Shown: positions 42,240 through 48,800 of the stretch, in pieces
Numbering within the stretch: position 1 is the stretch's first letter
How the letters are laid out: every line of letters begins with the position of its first letter
Made by a program: the position numbers and the translations under genes
Notes under the pieces: model-generated
Told to the model about the DNA's origin: nothing
What the model saw: only the letters and a program-made list of their open reading frames with translations
The model's database searches: none
Assembly: GCA_965262785.1 (NCBI GenBank)
Contig: OZ253559.1
Span: 4,164,265 to 4,228,264, forward strand
Length of the DNA stretch: 64,000 bases
Direction: 5' to 3'
From: Rhodothermales bacterium
GTDB lineage: Bacteria > Bacteroidota > Rhodothermia > Rhodothermales > Bin80

Positions 42240-43272
42240 AGATCCAAGGCTGGTCTGTTAAAGAAACATGATCAAAATACGCCTGCGTGGGTTATCCATT
42301 CTGCTGCTCCTCACCACGGCTACCCAGTATTGCTCACTGCCCGAAACGTACCGATTCTGCCGGCAGGTACGTAGACTGGCGGGCAAGAGCCGGGAGCATA
42401 GGTGTGAGCAGCGCAGAATCCTGCATTTTGCACCACTACTGCGACAAATCCAACACCCCACTGCCAGTATCCCACTTAAGTCCTACACATTTCCCCCAGA
42501 GACCCTTGTCATGACTATAGTGAAAAAGCTAGACCCGGGGGGTTGCCCTGCCGCCGGTTCGATTGCCTCGGGCGCTGCCGCCTGCGCTGGACAGGGGGAC
42601 GGCCAATGAAAAGCGGGCCAAGACATTGCAGGTCCAAACATATCAACAGGATCATTGCTGCTAGGCGTACGGGCCAACGTCATCCTAGGTGTAGAGCGGC
42701 CCGCAGCAGCTTCCTCCCGACTGCTCTCAATTTGTGGCGAAAGTTTCAGCCACAGCTAACTCAGAATTCCAGTGGACCTGAATAGACGTATGCCAGAAGC
42801 CGCTATATAACGGCGGTGCTCTCTCAACACTCCTCATTTCGACTTGACGGTCAGTCCGAGGACCCGGGCCATCGTACGCAGCGGAAGGCCCTACCCATCA
42901 GGTCCCGCAGTCGGGTCTGCGGCTGGAAATTCCTTTTGCATGCCAAATGGTGCAATCATGTTAGGTCTACCCGTCGGCAACATTTCCGGCTTGACAAGGT
43001 GGCCTCACGGCCGATTGCACGGAAGCCAGCCTTTCGCGCGGTGGTTGGTCCGTGTAGATAGCGTAACTAACACAGCCGCAATGCCCGACTAAGGGCGTTG
43101 ATTTGGGGTTGAAGAGGCTTGGATTGGCAGGCGCAGCAATGGCAAAAGCTGTATCGTGCGCGTGCGTGCTTCGCAGGCACGCACCTATCCTGCCAATGCT
43201 TTTGCGGCATCGTGACGATCCGTGGTCCTTATCAATAGCCCTCCCTGGTGAGCAATACTGCGGGCCTTCTTT

Positions 43273-45783
43273 CTGTGTTGACACCCTACGGCGGCCACAG
43301 TCCGTACTTCTTCTGGAGCACGGCAAACATGACAGCACACGCCTCCAGCCGGAGGTAGCCGCGCGACATGATTTTGGCGCCAGGCGGCGGATCGCTTTTC
43401 CGATTCATGTATCCTCCCATCATGGCCAGCAGCAGAATGGCTGCAGCCAGATCATCGGGAGACGCCAAGTTGAATCCTTCGGCGTATTCTCGTAGCACGC
43501 ACAGCTCAATATCTGTAAACAGGATCTCGGCCGGTGCTTCCGGGTCCTGGCGACCCAGTAACGTCATCAAGTGCAGGCGCCACGCCATCACCATGTTGAT
43601 GGTGATGGCCAGGTGAAGACTATCGGCCTTCTGCAAGCGCAACTCCTGCACCTTGCACACACTCTTGAGAATCCGGAAGCCGTCTTCCACACGCCAGCGT
43701 AACATGTAATAGTCGACCATTGTTACGGCCTGTGCCACCGAGGTCACCTCCGCCGTCGCGAGCAGGTACCACTGAATCGCTTTCTGTCCTTCTGGCGGGT
43801 CCGCCTCTCCAACATGTATGGCGGTGACCTTCACCGGGCCGCCCTGCTGTCCACGGGTGGGCGGAAGCATGACCGTACGGTAGCGTACCTCCATCTGTGC
43901 GATGCGGCCCGCACGGCCCTTATGCTTGACACGGCCCGACTTCTCGCGACGGCTCAGCCGCTGTATTGCTACCTCAATGGTACCTTTGGGCGCCCCCTGG
44001 CGCATGAACTCAAACAACAACGGACCCTTTCTTCCCAGTCTCCGATTCGCCTTGGCCCGTACTAATAGATCCACCCGTCCCACTTGTTGCTGCGCGGCGA
44101 ACAGGGCAAAGATGTCCGCTTCCCGATCCATGACGCAGAGTACGCGGGTCTTGCTGCTGAGGTGTGTGGCCGCCTCGGCGATGTCATGCAGTCCGTCGAT
44201 CCATTGCTGCGTCTTAGCTGCGTGCTTTCCCGCTTGGGTCCTGTAGGCACAGCGCAGCACGCCCAGCGGCAACCCCTGCGCACTCAACGCCAACGTCGTA
44301 TGCAAATGCACCCCCCGTGCTTTCGCGGTGGTCTGGTTGCGCCCGATCACTTCCAAGCCCTCGCACGCAGGACGGGTGCTGTAGTTGATGTCCGTGCCGT
44401 CCTGAAGGCACAGCACCGTCTTTTCCGTGCGCATCCGCTCGATCGTACGACGGCGATGCGGCGCCAGGATATCCGCGGGCGTGGTTCCCCGCTCGTTGGC
44501 CTTCTCTATGAAGCGATAATATCCCCGTATCGCGGCACGATCGGATTTCATGGTGGCCGTTATGGACTCGCCGGGCGCTCGTGCCAATATAGTGACACTG
44601 TTGACCAGGCGGGTAGTCCGCCGCTTATCCCCCAGCTGTGCGCCCCCAAACTCCTGCGCCGCCCAGGTCTCGGCATCCAGCCCCGCGCCAGCCTCCAGTT
44701 TGGGATACGCATCTACGTGCGCCACCCCGAGATGCTTGCGCCACCGGCGGTCCAGATCATAGACGAACACCGCCTTCTTCGTCCGGGTACACGCCTTGGT
44801 CTCGGCATGGCGACCCCGGCCGGTGGTCCTTCCCACATATTGGAATCCCGCCGCACGGAAACAGGTCCCCCGCTGCTCAGGCCCCACGAAGGTCTCAATG
44901 ACCCACGGGGTATAGCCGTAGCGCGCCGCAAAATCCACGGGCAACCGCTTGAGCACCTTCCCCAGAAGATGACTGGCCAGGTTCTTGACCTTTACGCCTG
45001 GCCGAATTAACAGCCGGTTCAGGCCCACTACGCGCATCAGATGCTGCTGGCGCTGCGCGTGCGTCCAAGCCATCCACCGGTCGCGCGGTCCCACATACAG
45101 GCCGGAAGCCGCAAACCCGATCGCGCCCAGATACCCGTGATCGCTCCGAAACAAATACTTTATCTGCGCGCCCGCAAACTGCCTCACCCCCTGCGGATGC
45201 TCCGCTGCCATCAGGGTGTTCCAGCGCGCACGCTGCGTCGCATCCTCCACCAACTCCAAGGCCAAGCCCTTGATCTGTTTGAGCGAAGCGGGCACCTCCA
45301 CTGGTTTCGGCACCGGCTGGTCCAACAGCCGGGGCGTACCGCTTGCAATGGTGCGCCTGGGCGCGGGCAACGACAGCCTGTCCTCGGATTCCAGCGTCTT
45401 GAGCGCCTTCAGACACCCGGTCTGCTGCAGATTCCCACGAGCATCACGAAAGCCGAATGCATGGCACACCTGGCGGCTGATGGCCGTACGGCTTTCACCG
45501 GCATGCGCTTCCAATGTGCGCAAAAGCCGCGCCTCAGAGGTCCGCAGCGTGCGAAGAATCTGGCTCTGCGTAAGCATGCCGCAAAGCTACACGGCATGAT
45601 TTACAAAGTCAAGTCGCTAATTTGGGGACAGGGTAGTGTTAGGTGCCTAGCCCTGCTACAGCCGCCAGCCGGCACGGTTGCTCTCCGACTGAGTGCAGGC
45701 CAGCGTCAACCATTGTGCCACCTGCTGTACTGCCCAATTCCTGCGCCCGTTTGAATCCGGGTGTACAGTGGCTAACAACGCAG
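43273..45783 (-). mobile_element. insertion sequence (IS4 family, IS50-like); boundaries tentative
   Basis: Presence is supported by the intact transposase. The proposed ends are CTGTGTTGACACCC... at 43273 and the reverse complement CTGCGTTGTTAGCC... ending at 45783. They match at 7 of the first 8 nt and 11 of 18 nt, and they begin with CTG as in IS50. The tnp stop lies 13 nt inside the left end, as in IS50. No 9-bp target duplication is visible, so the ends are unproven. Confidence 0.3.
43286..45577 (-). CDS. IS4-family (Tn5/IS50-like) transposase with an N-terminal DUF4338-like extension
   Basis: Residues from about 300 to 763 align by eye with Tn5 Tnp. The matches are LGDKRRTTRLVN (Tn5 LGDPRRTARLVN), QDGTDINY (EDTTSLSY, D1), CVMDREADIF (VCDREADIH, D2), YYMLRWRVEDGFRILK (YTHRWRIEEFHKAWK, E plus YREK) and MGGYMNRKSDPPPG (LGGFMDSKRTG). 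Residues 1 to about 295 carry GAQIKY..., ...LGAIGFAASG...RDRWMAW... and ...NLASHLLGKVLKRLPVDF...YGYTPWVIETFVGPEQ.RGTCFRAAGFQYVGRTTGRGR, which I recognise as the DUF4338 pattern. Confidence 0.9.
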   Translation of the reverse strand: MLTQSQILRTLRTSEARLLRTLEAHAGESRTAISRQVCHAFGFRDARGNLQQTGCLKALKTLESEDRLSLPAPRRTIASGTPRLLDQPVPKPVEVPASLKQIKGLALELVEDATQRARWNTLMAAEHPQGVRQFAGAQIKYLFRSDHGYLGAIGFAASGLYVGPRDRWMAWTHAQRQQHLMRVVGLNRLLIRPGVKVKNLASHLLGKVLKRLPVDFAARYGYTPWVIETFVGPEQRGTCFRAAGFQYVGRTTGRGRHAETKACTRTKKAVFVYDLDRRWRKHLGVAHVDAYPKLEAGAGLDAETWAAQEFGGAQLGDKRRTTRLVNSVTILARAPGESITATMKSDRAAIRGYYRFIEKANERGTTPADILAPHRRRTIERMRTEKTVLCLQDGTDINYSTRPACEGLEVIGRNQTTAKARGVHLHTTLALSAQGLPLGVLRCAYRTQAGKHAAKTQQWIDGLHDIAEAATHLSSKTRVLCVMDREADIFALFAAQQQVGRVDLLVRAKANRRLGRKGPLLFEFMRQGAPKGTIEVAIQRLSRREKSGRVKHKGRAGRIAQMEVRYRTVMLPPTRGQQGGPVKVTAIHVGEADPPEGQKAIQWYLLATAEVTSVAQAVTMVDYYMLRWRVEDGFRILKSVCKVQELRLQKADSLHLAITINMVMAWRLHLMTLLGRQDPEAPAEILFTDIELCVLREYAEGFNLASPDDLAAAILLLAMMGGYMNRKSDPPPGAKIMSRGYLRLEACAVMFAVLQKKYGLWPP

Positions 45784-45822
45784 CTAAATATGTGCTTAAG
45801 CTACACGGCTGTCAACTTTGCG

Positions 45823-48800
45823 CTAGTCCTCTTGCATCAAGATCGCCGGTATGCCCGACGCACGGATCATCTCGTTCAGCGCAGGCACCTCCAACTCCAG
45901 AATCGCCTTCAGCATGGCGAGCTGTTCGTCAATCCGCCTCGTGAGGATGTCGCGCACCTCAATCGCCTGATGCGTGGGCTTGTAGTTCCCAATGGATGCG
46001 TTGGAGCCTACGGCAGCCAGCTTGTTGTTAAGCCTAATGGGAAAATTCAAGGGATCCTGACGACTCTGATTCTTGGTCTGGTACAGCGCTTCCTCAATCG
46101 TGGTGATACGCTTCACGAGACTGTCCGCAGCCGCCTTGACTTCGTCGGTAGCATCTTTCCGCTTCGATACTCCTTGAATCTGGCTTCGAACATTCCTGAT
46201 TCGTTTGATGGCCTCGTGCGTTTCACTGAGCTTGTCGCGAATCCCGATAAGGAATTCAAATTGTGCCAGCAAGTCTTGCTGCGTTGAAGACGCGCGTGGA
46301 TCCATCTTGATCTCGAACGGCACCTCAACGGAGTCTCCATTGGCAACGAGGCGAGCCCGGTAGTTGCCCGGCGCTGCCCGCGGACCTTGAACACTCCCGC
46401 TCCACATAATAAGCCCCTCAAAGCTTTCAGCGTCCTCATAGCGCGTATTCCACCGGAAAGTGTGGGTGCCGGCCACAAGGTCTAAGCTCTCACTGTCGTA
46501 GGTCTTGATAGTCGTGCCGTCCTCCTCCAAGATGCGCAAGACTGTTCCAGTGGAGTCAGGTACATCTTTGAAGTAGTAACGCAGGGCAACGCTGCTGCCT
46601 GCACCGCGCACCAGCGGACTGGTCCTGAATAGCCACATGTCGCTCGATGCAACCTCTTCCGACAGCTGATGCAAGAGCGAAACGTCGTCCATTACCCAGA
46701 ATGAGCGGCCCTGCGTAGCTACGACCAGGTCGTTGTCTTTCCACGCCAGGTCCGTAATCGGAACCACTGGCAGGTTTCGCTGAAACGAGGTCCAACGTGC
46801 ACCGTCATCAAACGAAATGTACATTCCACTCTCCGTGCCCGCGTATAGCAGGCCCGGCCGAACTGGGTCCGGCTGAATGGCTCGGGTGAAGTGCTGGCGA
46901 TCTATGCCGCCGGTAATCTCCGTCCAAGTCTCTCCAAAGTCCATAGTCTTGTAGAGATACGGCTGGAAGTCATCCAGCTTGTAGCGCGTCCCCGCCATAT
47001 ACAAGCCGCCTTCCTCAAATGGATGCACTGACATGTCGTTGATCATCATCCACTCCGGCATCCCGTCCGGCGTGACATCAGTCCAAGTGGCACCGCCGTC
47101 ACGCGTCATGTGTACCAGCCCGTCGTCAGAGCCCGTCCACAGCACGTGCGCGTCATGCTGACTCTCGGCCACCGTGAATATCGTCGCATAGTATTCGACA
47201 CCCGTGTTGTCTTTTGTGATCGGACCGCCACTTGAGCTAAGCTTGGCGGAGTCGGCCCGCGTCAGATCGGGACTAATGATCTCCCACGACTGCCCTTCCG
47301 TCACGCTCCTGAAAAGGTGGTTTCCAGCCGTGTACAGGACTTCATGGTCATGCTGAGAAAACAGAATCGGGAAATTCCACTGAAACCGATACTTCATCCC
47401 CTCCGCGCCGTGCCCCATCGGGTTGTCTGGATACACATTCACCGCACGACGCTCACCCGTGTCGTGGTTCACGCGAGTCAGGTACCCGCCATAAGAACCA
47501 CCGTATACAATGTCAGGGTTGTCCGGCTTGGGCGCCAACCAGCCACTCTCGCCGCCCGCCGTAGGCTCCCACTCCCGTTCATTGGTGCCACCAGAAGTGT
47601 GCAAGATGCGAACGGTTGAGTTGTCCTGTTGCGCGCCCAGAATCCGATACGGAAAGTGATTGTCCGTCGTAACCCGGTAGAATTGCGCCGTTGGCTGATT
47701 GTAGTAAGTGCTCCAGTTCCTGCCTCCATCAAAGGTCACCTGAGCCCCTCCGTCGTCTGCAATAATCAGGTGGTTGCTGTCATCGGGATCTATCCATAGA
47801 TCGTGGTGATCACCATGCGGTGTCGAGATGCTTTCATAGGTTTGACCGCCGTCTTTTGAGCGCCAAAACCGCACATTGAGCACGTACACCACATCTTCAT
47901 CCTGGGTGTCGGCATAGATGCGCGTGTAATACCATGCGCGCTGGCGGAGACTCCGGTCCTTATTAATCCGTCGCCAGGAATTCCCGCCGTCATCCGACCG
48001 AAAAACGCCGCCATCCGCGGCTTCAATGATGGCATAGACGCGGCGCGGATTGGCAGGAGAGATCGACACGCCGCTGATGCCGAGCGCGCCTTTCGGCAGG
48101 CCGTTGTCTTGCCCGGTGACCTCATTCCACGTGTCCCCGCCGTCGGTCGACTTCCAGATCCCAGAGCCGGGCCCACCGCTCTCCAGGCTGTAGGGTGTCC
48201 TAATCACGCGCCAAGCACTCGCATACAGCACGCGCGGATTCGAAGGGTCCATCGCCAGATCCACGAAACCCACTTCGTCGTTGATGTAAAGCACCTTTTC
48301 CCAGGAAACACCGCCATCCTTGGTCCGATATATGCCGCGCTCTTCATTGGGCCCTGAAAGGTGCCCCATCACGGCGGCGTACACGAGGCTGGAATTCTTG
48401 GGGTGGATCCTGATGCGCGGAATCCGATGCGAGTCCTCAAGGCCTATAGACTCCCAACTTTGGCCGGCATCCATCGACTTGAACATGCCGTAACCATGGG
48501 ACACGTTTCCGCGCACGGTTTTTTCGCCGCCACCGACGTAGATAATGTTCGGGTCCCATGTACTTACAGCTACCGCGCCGATGGAGCCACCGAAATAGCC
48601 GTCGGAAATATTCTGCCAGGACGCCCCGCCAGTAGTCGAGCGCCAAACGCCACCGCCAGTTGCGCCGAAATACGCGAGCATCGGGTGTCCCGGAACGCCG
48701 GTCACGGCGGCGGAGCGCCCGCCCCGGTATGGACCAATGGCGCGATACTCCAATGCACTGTACAGCGTGGTGTCATAGGTAGCTGTCTGTGCCTGAGCCT

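What the first reader, a model, noticed from the sequence alone, without database searches (positions are those of the whole stretch)
43286..45577. DUF4338 (Druantia DruA-like) domain fused in-frame to a complete Tn5-type transposase
The 763-aa ORF contains a full-length IS50/Tn5-like transposase. It includes the DNA-binding N-terminus (WAAQEFGGAQLGDKRRTTRLVN), all three catalytic acidic residues in their Tn5 contexts, the YREK-type motif and the C-terminal dimerisation region. A roughly 295-aa domain precedes this core. Its motifs (GAQIKY, RDRWMAW, NLASHLL...LPVDF, ETFVGPEQ.RGTCFRAAGFQYVGRTTGRGR) match what I remember of DUF4338, the domain that defines DruA of the Druantia anti-phage system and has no known biochemical function. 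A covalent fusion to a cut-and-paste transposase would suggest a nucleic-acid-directed role for DUF4338, such as target choice, end binding or regulation. The ORF is intact with no frameshifts, so the element may be active.
Basis: partly seen in the sequence, partly recalled or inferred. Interest (0 to 1): 0.6.

Follow-up and report, generated by a model that had tools for sequence, protein, structure and literature searches.

The report
Tn5-type transposon with Mom-like domain
This is a recently active jumping gene of the well-known Tn5 type. Its transposase carries an extra, strongly conserved front part that belongs to the DruA/DUF4338 family and most resembles phage Mu's DNA-modifying enzyme Mom. 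The fusion is widespread, but I found no paper that studies it.

Summary
Window 45577..43286 (minus strand) is one intact 763-aa ORF with three parts:
- a winged-helix-like head (residues 1-65);
- a DruA/DUF4338 GNAT-fold domain (99-291; Pfam PF14236, E 1.6e-21);
- a complete Tn5-type transposase (DNA-binding domain; DDE D393/D484/E631; YREK; dimerisation tail).

It lies in a 2670-bp insertion sequence (42967-45636) with about 34-bp imperfect inverted repeats and an 8-bp target duplication.

The genome holds 8 intact copies. It also holds about 14 copies of a second IS whose transposase is 49% identical and has the same architecture. Contigs from two other studies carry the empty site, so this insertion is recent.

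Both ISs, and at least five related lineages, insert into CTAG-centred 8-mers. CTAG is the rarest tetranucleotide in this genome.

The extra domain evolves under purifying selection, like the transposase core. Its best structural match is Mom, and it keeps the equivalents of Mom's essential R111 and S124. It differs at these sites from true Druantia DruA, and PADLOC's DruA models do not hit it.

The same domain is also fused to IS66, IS630 and ISAzo13 transposases. Its role is untested; I favour a locally acting nucleic-acid-directed enzyme.

The scan has reported this fusion before on other DNA: 20 notes in at least 12 genomes, one of them in this genome.

The parts
42967..45636 (-). Complete insertion sequence, 2670 bp
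   Evidence: blastn of the region against the whole genome gives 8 copies, 98.8-100% identical, all ending at these two positions.
45603..45636 (-). Left (gene-proximal) terminal inverted repeat, 5'-CTACCCTGTCCCC...CTTGAC. The stretch between the repeat and the ATG holds a TAGCTTTG motif.
   Evidence: Alignment of the two ends: about 34 nt, imperfect, with two 1-nt indels. The terminal CTACCC and an inner CTTGAC are shared.
42967..43000 (+). Right terminal inverted repeat, CTACCCGTCGGCAAC...CTTGAC as read on the + strand
42959..42966 (.). 8-bp target-site duplication, copy 1 (TGTTAGGT on the + strand = ACCTAACA on the gene strand)
   Evidence: Identical 8-mers flank the element. Contigs of runs X5 and X6 join 42958 to 45637 and so carry one copy only.
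45637..45644 (.). 8-bp target-site duplication, copy 2
43286..45577 (-). Single 763-aa ORF: fused winged-helix-like + Mom/DruA-type GNAT + Tn5-type transposase
45383..45577 (-). Residues 1-65: four-helix, winged-helix-like head with near-invariant C38
   Evidence: AF2 models with pLDDT 90-95. Only weak winged-helix matches: VIA Z <= 6.7, Foldseek E >= 1. C38 is present in 97 of 98 homologues.
45284..45382 (-). Residues 66-98: extended segment without secondary structure but modelled with high confidence
   Evidence: pLDDT 90-98, no helix or strand. The L70-P71 motif is over 90% conserved.
44705..45283 (-). Residues 99-291: GNAT-fold domain of Pfam DruA/DUF4338, Mom-like. Conserved H127, Q138, Y141, R165, W171, R188, N199, S202, D215, E228, R256, K268.
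   Evidence: Pfam. AF2 pLDDT 94.8. Top structural hit is Mom 8bv8_B: Foldseek E 3.6e-6; VIA Z 14.4 over 168 residues. hhalign against the Mom family. Conservation.
44501..44665 (-). Residues 305-359: Tn5-type N-terminal DNA-binding domain
   Evidence: Pfam Tnp_DNA_bind 48.2 bits. Aligned to Tn5 residues 9 onward.
43592..44401 (-). Residues 393-662: DDE catalytic core (D393, D484, E631; YREK Y624/R627/E631/K638)
43355..43591 (-). Residues 663-741: Tn5-type C-terminal dimerisation region
   Evidence: Pfam Dimer_Tnp_Tn5 22.9 bits, below the 26.7 cut-off. The family profile aligns to Tn5 through residue ~460 of 477.
42967..43285 (-). 319-bp non-coding tail between the stop codon and the right end. 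It holds a partly conserved block (43130-43215) with an 8-bp-stem hairpin (43162-43184).
   Evidence: No Rfam match. The overlapping 123-aa ORF is not conserved. The block is 80% identical in an element whose protein is 83% identical. The second IS family also has a ~284-bp tail with little similarity to this one.

Best explanation
This is a recently active IS50/Tn5-type insertion sequence. It moves by the usual DDE cut-and-paste chemistry of its Tn5-like core and duplicates 8 bp at CTAG-centred targets.

Its transposase is permanently joined to an N-terminal module: a winged-helix-like head plus a GNAT-fold domain of the DUF4338/DruA family. That module's conserved site resembles the active site of phage Mu Mom, a Gly-tRNA-dependent adenine-N6 DNA acyltransferase.

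My reading is that the module is a working enzyme. It would act locally, in cis with the transposase, on nucleic acid in or near the transposition complex (the element's ends or the target). It would serve as a built-in regulator or target-choice device, not as a genome-wide DNA modifier.

Shown: the anatomy; the copy number; the target duplications and CTAG preference; the recent insertion; purifying selection on the module; the structural and profile similarity to Mom; and the recurrence of the module on other transposase families.

Inferred: that the domain is catalytically active; that its substrate is DNA; what its donor is; and that its purpose is regulation or targeting.
For: Anatomy and Tn5 membership.

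Mobility:
- 8 copies, 98.8-100% identical, each with an 8-bp duplication.
- A second family (49% protein identity, same architecture) with 12 complete copies and further partial ones.
- Empty-site contigs in two other studies that skip exactly 2678 bp, which is the IS plus one duplication copy.

Target:
- NNCTAGNN or NNYTARNN at all 8 family-1 sites, nearly all family-2 sites, and sites of 5-6 further lineages in other Rhodothermales genomes.
- CTAG is the rarest tetranucleotide in the genome (4530 sites, observed/expected 0.29).

The module is functional:
- dN/dS is 0.19-0.23 (head), 0.21-0.33 (GNAT) and 0.20-0.23 (transposase) against elements 62-83% identical.
- H127, Q138, Y141, R165, W171, R188, S202, E228, R256 and K268 are invariant in 119 close relatives.

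Mom-likeness:
- Mom 8bv8_B is the top hit in Foldseek (E 3.6e-6) and in VIA-align (Z 14.4, 168 aligned, rmsd 3.6; next GNATs Z <= 12.2).
- Profile-profile hhalign against 109 Mom-family sequences (phage Mu Mom plus 108 homologues): E 8.9e-5 local, E 1e-6 global.
- R188 and S202 align to Mom R111 and S124, both essential for Mom activity (PMC13219725). N199-x-x-S202 matches Mom's N-S-E-S.
- Relatives P0235 and P0236 give weak direct Pfam Mom hits and no other GNAT family.

Generality:
- The same module is fused to IS66 (P0229, C-terminal), IS630 (P0235) and ISAzo13 (P0215) transposases, all above NCBIfam cut-offs.
- The N-domain has 4985 representative homologues at E <= 0.001.

Why a local role: all 22 PF14236 matches in this genome lie in the transposase reading frames of these insertion sequences; 20 of the frames are open for 759-766 aa and two are shorter (690 and 304 aa).
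Against: - No activity has been tested.
- In this protein the position aligned to Mom D149 is Gly (G232). The wider family has D/E there in 74 of 98 sequences, and the close relatives are variable (G/A/E/D). The Mom Y159 equivalent is Phe.
- Mom's essential HTH-like insertion (residues ~175-209) is missing. A short basic loop (T-G-R-G-R) takes its place.
- Pfam's Mom model does not hit this protein, and the local hhalign probability is only 60%.
- A shared fold does not show a shared substrate.
- CTAG or YTAR targets are also used, to my knowledge, by IS5- and IS630-type elements that lack this domain. So the preference need not come from the module.
Confidence: 0.55

Rival explanations
1. The module is a non-catalytic DNA-binding or target-selection device. 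The winged-helix head and a degenerate GNAT scaffold would recognise CTAG-centred sites, or a host protein bound there, and tether the transpososome. No chemistry would be involved.
For: - Strong CTAG-centred target preference in all the lineages examined, all of which carry the module.
- The canonical acetyl-CoA motif Q/RxxGxG/A is absent (NLAS instead).
- The acidic residue aligned to Mom D149 is lost in this lineage.
- The head resembles winged-helix DNA binders, weakly.
Against: - About ten polar residues are invariant, including the equivalents of two Mom catalytic residues. That is more than a scaffold would need.
- The module also rides on IS66, IS630 and ISAzo13 transposases, which have their own targeting rules.
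- I did not compare targets of module-free relatives.
Confidence: 0.2
2. The module is a protein acyltransferase. It would acylate lysines of the transposase itself or of a host nucleoid or replication protein, tuning transposition to the cell's acyl-CoA state.
For: Below Mom, the fold search lists mostly protein and small-molecule N-acetyltransferases at Z 10-12. Fusion to the transposase would keep enzyme and substrate together.
Against: - The pyrophosphate-binding GxG/A loop typical of CoA-using GNATs is replaced by the Mom-like N-x-x-S.
- Mom ranks above every acetyltransferase.
- True DruA, not this domain, has the LLGGK loop.
Confidence: 0.13
3. The module is a passenger that benefits the element or the host against restriction or phages. 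It would modify DNA broadly as Mom does, or act as a defence sensor as DruA is supposed to. It would not be part of the transposition mechanism.
For: Relatives are found in an anti-restriction enzyme (Mom) and in a defence system (Druantia type I, and DndF fusions according to PMC10853773).
Against: - It is covalently fused to a transposase, a protein class usually made in tiny amounts and acting in cis.
- No DruB-E partners: every PF14236 match in the genome lies in a transposase reading frame of one of these elements.
- PADLOC's DruA models do not match.
- The module is fused to at least four transposase families, which argues for a link with transposition itself.
Confidence: 0.1
4. The long ORF is an assembly or sequencing artefact that merges two genes.
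For: None found.
Against: - Eight independent copies encode the same 763-aa protein.
- Hundreds of homologues of 745-800 aa from many assemblies have the same architecture.
- Short-read contigs of three further runs reproduce the sequence without indels (table 4).
Confidence: 0.01

Closest known systems
IS50 / Tn5 and its transposase (IS4 family, IS50 subgroup; PDB 1MUH, 1MM8, 4DM0)
   Same: - N-terminal DNA-binding domain, DDE triad, YREK motif and C-terminal dimerisation region, all aligned.
- Single-ORF element with terminal inverted repeats starting 5'-CT.
- Target duplication within the subgroup's 8-9 bp range (PMC2266710).
   Different: - 2670 bp against 1350-1550 bp for the subgroup.
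- The transposase has about 295 extra N-terminal residues (winged-helix-like head plus GNAT).
- 8-bp duplication, not Tn5's 9-bp (Tn5 figure from my knowledge).
- Strict CTAG-centred target.
- A 319-bp non-coding tail.
- No evidence for an Inh-like internal start: M343 is conserved in only 7 of 118 relatives.
Phage Mu Mom (Pfam PF25680; PDB 8BV8), a Gly-tRNA(Gly)-dependent adenine-N6 acyltransferase of dsDNA (PMC13219725)
   Same: - GNAT fold, and the best structural match.
- Shared motifs in the catalytic half: R (Mom R111 = R188); N-x-x-S (Mom S124 = S202); (E/Q)-(S/T)-F-x-D; G-x-x-Y-x-A-x-N-(F/W)-x-x-(I/V)-G; the closing strand and helix.
   Different: - Not a member by Pfam.
- Lacks Mom's essential HTH-like insertion.
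- This protein has Gly at the position of Mom D149.
- It is fused to a transposase and preceded by a winged-helix-like head.
- Substrate and donor are unknown.
DruA of Druantia type I (PADLOC DruA1; Pfam PF14236 is named after it)
   Same: - Same Pfam family.
- Same fold skeleton in the first half of the GNAT domain: G-x-Q/R-x-R-(Y/F)-L-I, then RD-x-W (hhalign probability 90.5% over 71 columns).
   Different: - PADLOC's DruA models do not hit this protein.
- Three true DruA proteins from the same phylum lack H127, N199/S202, D215 and E228; two of the three also lack R188 (the third keeps an Arg there). They carry LLGGK where this domain has NLAS.
- DruA stands alone (376-407 aa) next to defence genes; this domain lies inside an IS.
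The same DUF4338 module on other insertion-sequence families (IS66, IS630, ISAzo13)
   Same: The same winged-helix-like + GNAT module, 33-37% identical over about 260 residues, in one polypeptide with a DDE transposase.
   Different: - Unrelated transposase cores.
- In the IS66 example the module is C-terminal.

Membership tests
IS4 family, IS50 subgroup (Tn5-like) | DDE catalytic triad and complete YREK motif | tested here: met
   D393, D484 and E631, plus Y624/R627/E631/K638, align to Tn5 D97/D188/E326 and Y319/R322/E326/K333. NCBIfam NF033590 scores 280.5 bits against a cut-off of 160.
IS4 family, IS50 subgroup (Tn5-like) | Tn5-type N-terminal DNA-binding domain and C-terminal dimerisation domain | tested here: met
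   Tnp_DNA_bind 48.2 bits (cut-off 24). Dimer_Tnp_Tn5 22.9 bits, below its 26.7 cut-off, but the family profile aligns to Tn5 residues 8-460 at E 6e-72.
IS4 family, IS50 subgroup (Tn5-like) | Terminal inverted repeats with 5'-CT/CW ends and an 8-9 bp direct repeat | tested here: met
   Ends are CTACCC...; 8-bp duplications at 8 of 8 copies. Subgroup table in PMC2266710.
IS4 family, IS50 subgroup (Tn5-like) | Typical element size 1350-1550 bp | tested here: not met
   The element is 2670 bp. The excess comes from the 295-residue N-terminal module and a 319-bp tail.
Pfam PF14236 (DruA / DUF4338) | HMM score above the gathering threshold | tested here: met
   77.2 bits against a cut-off of 27, residues 104-256 on model positions 49-222 of 297.
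Druantia type I DruA (defence protein) | Match to the PADLOC DruA models | tested here: not met
   No hit for residues 1-295 at E <= 10. Relatives P0208 and P0235 reach only E ~1e-6.
Druantia type I DruA (defence protein) | Stand-alone gene in a Druantia operon (DruB-E neighbours) | tested here: not met
   The domain is part of a transposase inside a bounded IS. All 22 PF14236 matches in the genome lie in transposase reading frames of the two IS families; 20 of the frames are open for 759-766 aa.
Mom family (Pfam PF25680) | HMM match to PF25680 | tested here: not met
   No Mom hit for P0001 at E <= 0.1. Two relatives give sub-threshold hits at E 0.004-0.01.
Mom family (Pfam PF25680) | Mom-type GNAT fold with the catalytic Arg and Ser (Mom R111, S124) | tested here: met
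   Mom is the top structural hit at Z 14.4. R188 (98 of 98) and S202 (92 of 98) align to R111 and S124 in profile-profile alignment. Residue roles come from PMC13219725.
Mom family (Pfam PF25680) | HTH-like insertion (Mom ~175-209), essential for activity | tested here: not met
   In the hhalign alignment the Mom segment is an insertion relative to this domain, which has a short T-G-R-G-R loop there.
Mom family (Pfam PF25680) | Gly-tRNA-dependent acylation of adenine N6 in dsDNA | not testable with these tools
   This needs biochemistry.
GNAT superfamily | GNAT fold | tested here: met
   185 chains at Z >= 8 in the VIA search and 272 Foldseek matches at E <= 0.001. Every listed match is a GNAT-fold protein, nearly all of them acetyltransferases. 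PMC10853773 also calls DUF4338 a GNAT domain.
GNAT superfamily | Acetyl-CoA pyrophosphate-binding motif Q/R-x-x-G-x-G/A | tested here: not met
   The equivalent loop reads K-V-K-N-L-A-S (family consensus x-N-L-A-S).

The most novel reading that the evidence does not exclude
The transposase carries its own Mom-type nucleic-acid-modifying enzyme. Using charged tRNA or an acyl donor, it would acylate a base in the element's ends or in the CTAG target. That would couple transposition, or target choice and immunity, to a chemical DNA mark and to the cell's translational state. This would be the first DDE transposase with a built-in base-modifying activity. The module would then be a general partner of many IS families, and the finding would give a concrete biochemical lead for the still unexplained DruA of Druantia.
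Probability: 0.15. Interest if true: 0.85.

Novelty: new variant of a known kind. Interest (0 to 1): 0.55.

Why it matters
Tn5 transposase is among the best understood and most used transposases. Even so, thousands of natural relatives carry a conserved, enzyme-like extra domain whose role nobody has tested.

The same domain rides on several unrelated transposase families, so it probably answers a need common to DDE transposition: regulation, target choice, or dealing with host defences.

Its kinship with Mom (a DNA hypermodifying enzyme) on one side and with Druantia DruA (a defence component of unknown activity) on the other links three fields.

This element is a good test case. It is intact, multi-copy and recently mobile, and it has a sharply defined CTAG target.

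Tried and rejected
I could not read the neighbourhoods of the stand-alone ~290-aa homologues (P0208, P0227, P0142) or of the IS66, IS630 and ISAzo13 fusions. I therefore could not tell whether the short forms are split two-gene elements.
- Rfam found nothing credible in the element (two hits far below their gathering scores).
- The sigma-70 promoter scan found nothing, and terminator-like sites were no more frequent than in shuffles.
- The 123-aa ORF 42967..43338 (minus strand), which ends exactly at the IS terminus, is not conserved: it has stops in the relative whose protein is 83% identical. Rejected as a gene.
- The 3' tails of the two IS families in this genome align poorly.
- Inh-like internal start: M343 lies 6 residues before the position equivalent to Tn5 M56 but is present in only 7 of 118 relatives. 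M382 is conserved (111 of 118) but sits in the folded core, so it says nothing. No conclusion.
- Fold of the N-terminal head: Foldseek gave no match at E <= 1, and VIA gave only Z <= 6.7. 'Winged-helix-like' is a description, not a demonstrated membership.
- A single-sequence hhalign of Mom against the family alignment gave only 5% probability. The profile-profile run is the one to trust, and it is moderate.
I classified them with phmmer and scanned only the outliers.
- The one RNA contig (run X20, 43111-43369) cannot show transcription, because DNA carry-over is not excluded.
- Literature: four papers mention DUF4338, and none discusses a transposase fusion.
Full report
**1. Observation**

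Window 45577..43286 is a 763-aa ORF starting with ATG.

Pfam places four families on it:
- DruA/DUF4338 (PF14236) on residues 104-256: 77.2 bits, cut-off 27, E 1.6e-21.
- Tnp_DNA_bind on 305-359.
- DDE_Tnp_1 on 421-662.
- Dimer_Tnp_Tn5 on 663-741: 22.9 bits, just under its cut-off.

NCBIfam's IS4 transposase model NF033590 scores 280 bits against a cut-off of 160.

phmmer against solved structures finds Tn5 transposase at E 3e-35. The alignment puts D393, D484 and E631 on the Tn5 triad, and Y624/R627/E631/K638 on YREK.

**2. The element**

blastn against the whole 4.25-Mb genome, a single contig, bounds a 2670-bp unit at window 42967-45636. It is present 8 times at 98.8-100% identity.

The ends are imperfect inverted repeats of about 34 nt. 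They begin 5'-CTACCC and share an inner CTTGAC. Each copy is flanked by an 8-bp direct repeat, one of them with a single mismatch. All eight copies encode the full 763-aa protein. This disposes of the merged-genes worry.

A second IS of about 2.63 kb has perfect CTGCCGTTTACCCAAGTT ends. It occurs in 12 complete copies plus fragments. Its protein is 49.5% identical over the whole length, the N-terminal module included. All 22 PF14236 matches in the genome lie in the transposase reading frames of these two families; 20 of the frames are open for 759-766 aa and two are shorter.

The window copy sits in an intergenic stretch about 180 bp downstream of a Sortilin/Vps10-repeat gene. It does not visibly break a gene.

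**3. Recent mobility**

I laid Logan contigs of public runs on 42400-46200.
- In run X1 the contigs run from both flanks into the element.
- In runs X5 and X6, which come from two other studies, one contig each joins 42958 directly to 45637. These contigs skip 2678 bp, which is the 2670-bp IS plus one copy of the 8-bp duplication. The flanks are nearly identical (0-3 differences over about 560 bp on each side).

That is the empty target site, so this insertion is polymorphic among close relatives and therefore young.

Contig depth over the IS is about 5-10 times that of the flanks, as expected for a multi-copy element.

**4. Target**

The duplicated 8-mers of family 1 are TGCTAGGC, ATCTAGCC, ACCTAACA, CGCTAGGC, GGCTAAGT, GGCTAGG(G/C), GGTTAGCC and TGCTAGGT. 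Those of family 2 are almost all (G/C)(G/C)CTAG(G/C)N.

In loci from other Rhodothermales genomes, copies of five or six further lineages show the same CTAG- or YTAR-centred 8-bp duplications. Their proteins are 52-64% identical to this one.

CTAG is the most under-represented tetranucleotide in this genome: 4530 sites, observed/expected 0.29. About one 8-mer in a thousand has CTAG at its centre, so the preference is far beyond chance.

**5. The extra module**

phmmer of residues 1-295 against 1.84 billion cluster representatives gives 4985 hits at E <= 0.001 and 2400 at E <= 1e-10. Most of the best hits cover the whole 1-295 region.

With a 98-sequence alignment, AlphaFold2 gives a confident model (mean pLDDT 94.8, pTM 0.90):
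- four helices with a small hairpin (residues 7-64);
- an extended, well-packed segment (66-98);
- a GNAT fold (99-291).

The head alone (pLDDT 90) finds only weak winged-helix matches: GyrA/ParC, GntR and Z-alpha domains at Z <= 6.7, and Foldseek E >= 1. I call it winged-helix-like and no more.

The GNAT part finds hundreds of acetyltransferases. In both searches the top match is phage Mu Mom (8bv8_B):
- Foldseek E 3.6e-6.
- VIA-align Z 14.4 over 168 residues, rmsd 3.6. The next GNATs are at Z 12.2 and below.

An Aravind-group paper had already called DUF4338 a GNAT domain in passing, as one of several N-terminal fusions of DndF (PMC10853773).

**6. How Mom-like is it**

Mom has its own Pfam family, PF25680, and that model does not hit this protein.

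I aligned 109 Mom-family sequences (phage Mu Mom plus 108 homologues) and compared profiles with hhalign. The local run gave E 8.9e-5 (probability 60%, 95 columns). The global run gave E 1e-6 (probability 83%, 159 columns).

The aligned motifs are specific:
- the Arg of S-R-F-L-I (R188; 98 of 98 sequences) falls on Mom R111;
- N199-L-A-S202 falls on Mom N-S-E-S124;
- E-T-F-V-D falls on Q-S-F-A-D149;
- G-T-C-Y-R-A-A-N-W falls on G-V-V-Y159-Q-A-S-N-F;
- the G-R-G loop and the last strand and helix also match.

The 2026 Mom paper shows that Mom transfers glycine from Gly-tRNA(Gly) to N6 of adenine in dsDNA. It shows that R111, S124 and R151 are essential, and that H58, Y59, D149 and Y159 are important (PMC13219725). 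The record I translated is 10 residues shorter than the paper's numbering, and the offset fits all five residues.

By the structural register (model 102 matches chain 37), H127 (97 of 98) falls on Mom H58.

Points against a simple equation with Mom:
- Mom's essential HTH-like insertion is absent.
- In this protein and its closest kin the D149 position is G232. The wider family has D/E there in 74 of 98 sequences; the 119 close relatives are mixed G/A/E/D and often have an acid two residues later.
- The Y159 position is Phe.

Among those 119 close full-length relatives, H127, Q138, Y141, R165, W171, R188, S202, E228, R256 and K268 never vary.

**7. Selection**

I computed Nei-Gojobori dN/dS against related elements whose proteins are 62-83% identical, taken from another genome.

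| Region | dN/dS |
|---|---|
| Head | 0.19-0.23 |
| GNAT domain | 0.21-0.33 |
| Transposase | 0.20-0.23 |

The module is thus kept by selection about as strongly as the catalytic core.

**8. Relation to Druantia DruA**

PADLOC's two DruA models do not hit residues 1-295 even at E <= 10. They touch some relatives at about 1e-6.

Searching 301 genomes of the phylum with the PADLOC model found three true DruA genes (ORFs of 376-407 aa).
- Pfam PF14236 scores those at 209-259 bits over the full model. It scores the IS-borne domains at 73-120 bits over model positions ~41-226.
- hhalign between my N-domain profile and the three DruA proteins gives 90.5% probability, but only over residues 115-189, the first half of the GNAT fold.
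- In a joint alignment the three DruA proteins lack H127, N199/S202, D215 and E228; two of the three also lack R188. They have LLGGK, which looks like a canonical GNAT glycine loop, where the IS-borne domain has NLAS.

With only three DruA sequences this is a pointer, not a proof. It says the IS-borne domain is a distinct branch whose predicted active site is nearer to Mom's than to DruA's.

**9. Other transposases with the same module**

Of the 148 best representatives, 86 also match the Tn5 part. Many of the rest are fragments.

Among the outliers, Pfam and NCBIfam identify three other fusions:
- an IS66 transposase with the module at its C-terminus (P0229, 258 bits against a cut-off of 180);
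- an IS630 transposase with the module at its N-terminus (P0235, 199 against 100);
- an ISAzo13 transposase (P0215, 223 against 200).

P0143 (758 aa) has the module and an unassigned C-terminal part. So at least four unrelated DDE families carry the module.

**10. Host and spread**

Close relatives of the protein are all in Rhodothermales metagenome-assembled genomes, often in many copies. In a sample of 301 genomes of the phylum, 8 have a PF14236 match: 5 of the IS type and 3 of the DruA type. That is a patchy spread, as expected for mobile DNA.

**11. Mechanism**

*Shown.* This is an intact, multi-copy, recently inserted IS50-type element with a CTAG-centred 8-bp target. Its transposase has a selected, enzyme-like, Mom-related module.

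*Inferred from Tn5.* Cut-and-paste by the DDE core, working as a dimer on the two ends.

*My reading (about 0.55 as a whole).* The module is an active transferase working in cis with the transposase on nucleic acid at the ends or the target. The specific idea of a DNA base mark stands at about 0.15. The reasoning has three steps:
- Fusion to a cis-acting, scarce protein argues for a local substrate.
- Recurrence on unrelated transposases argues for a role in something common to DDE transposition, not in end recognition.
- The Mom-type site argues for nucleic acid over protein.

*Rivals.* A non-catalytic targeting module (0.2), a protein acyltransferase (0.13), and an anti-restriction or defence passenger (0.1).

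**12. Novelty**

- The architecture is visible in the precomputed Pfam annotations of hundreds of database proteins.
- This scan has already reported it: 20 notes in at least 12 genomes, including the second IS family of this genome.
- In the searchable literature only four papers mention DUF4338, and none discusses a transposase fusion.
- The IS4-family survey lists IS50-type elements at 1350-1550 bp.

I file it as a new variant of a known kind.
- the empty-site evidence;
- domain-wise dN/dS;
- the CTAG rule across several lineages, set against CTAG's rarity;
- the residue-level contrast between IS-borne domains, Mom and true DruA.

Noticed in passing
G000:C1 400771-403395 and 11 other complete copies (e.g. 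2174941-2177565, 3135057-3137681): A second IS family of about 2.63 kb in the same genome. It has perfect 18-bp inverted repeats (CTGCCGTTTACCCAAGTT), GGCTAGCC-like 8-bp duplications, and a 760-aa transposase 49.5% identical to this one with the same module. Two pairs of copies sit in tandem, sharing one target copy (358591-363825 and 3132433-3137681).
   Followed up: partly
window 43130-43215 (hairpin 43162-43184): Inside the 319-bp non-coding tail, a block is 80% conserved in an element whose protein is 83% identical. It contains a perfect 8-bp-stem hairpin (GTGCGTGC-CTGCGAA-GCACGCAC on the gene strand). There is no Rfam match and its function is unknown.
   Followed up: partly
window 43111-43369: One 259-nt contig from a sponge metatranscriptome (run X20) is identical to the 3' end of the ORF plus the start of the tail. 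It hints that the host lives in sponges and that this stretch may be transcribed. DNA carry-over is not excluded.
   Followed up: no
window 45578-45636: The 59-nt leader inside the left end holds TTGACT, and 20 nt further on TAGCTTTG, which ends 4 nt before the ATG. This resembles the Bacteroidota-type -33/-7 (TAnnTTTG) promoter layout as I remember it, and it would give a nearly leaderless mRNA. The CTTGAC motif is also present in the right end and in the ends of the second IS family, so it may instead be a transposase contact.
   Followed up: no
whole genome G000: CTAG (observed/expected 0.29), CTAA/TTAG (0.41) and TTAA (0.47) are the most avoided tetranucleotides. They are exactly the cores these elements insert into.
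   Followed up: partly
G000:C1 3806848-3809439: Fragments 63-88% identical to the middle of this transposase gene (residues ~352-499). Probably a decayed copy of a third related element.
   Followed up: no
L077, L078, L079 (three genomes of the same phylum): True Druantia-type DruA genes (376-407 aa) carry an LLGGK loop at the place of the canonical GNAT glycine loop. The IS-borne domains and Mom have N-x-x-S there. This suggests different donors for the two branches.
   Followed up: partly
P0143 (758 aa, metagenomic representative): It carries the same N-terminal module, followed by about 460 residues with no Pfam or NCBIfam match. This may be a further, unassigned transposase family.
   Followed up: no
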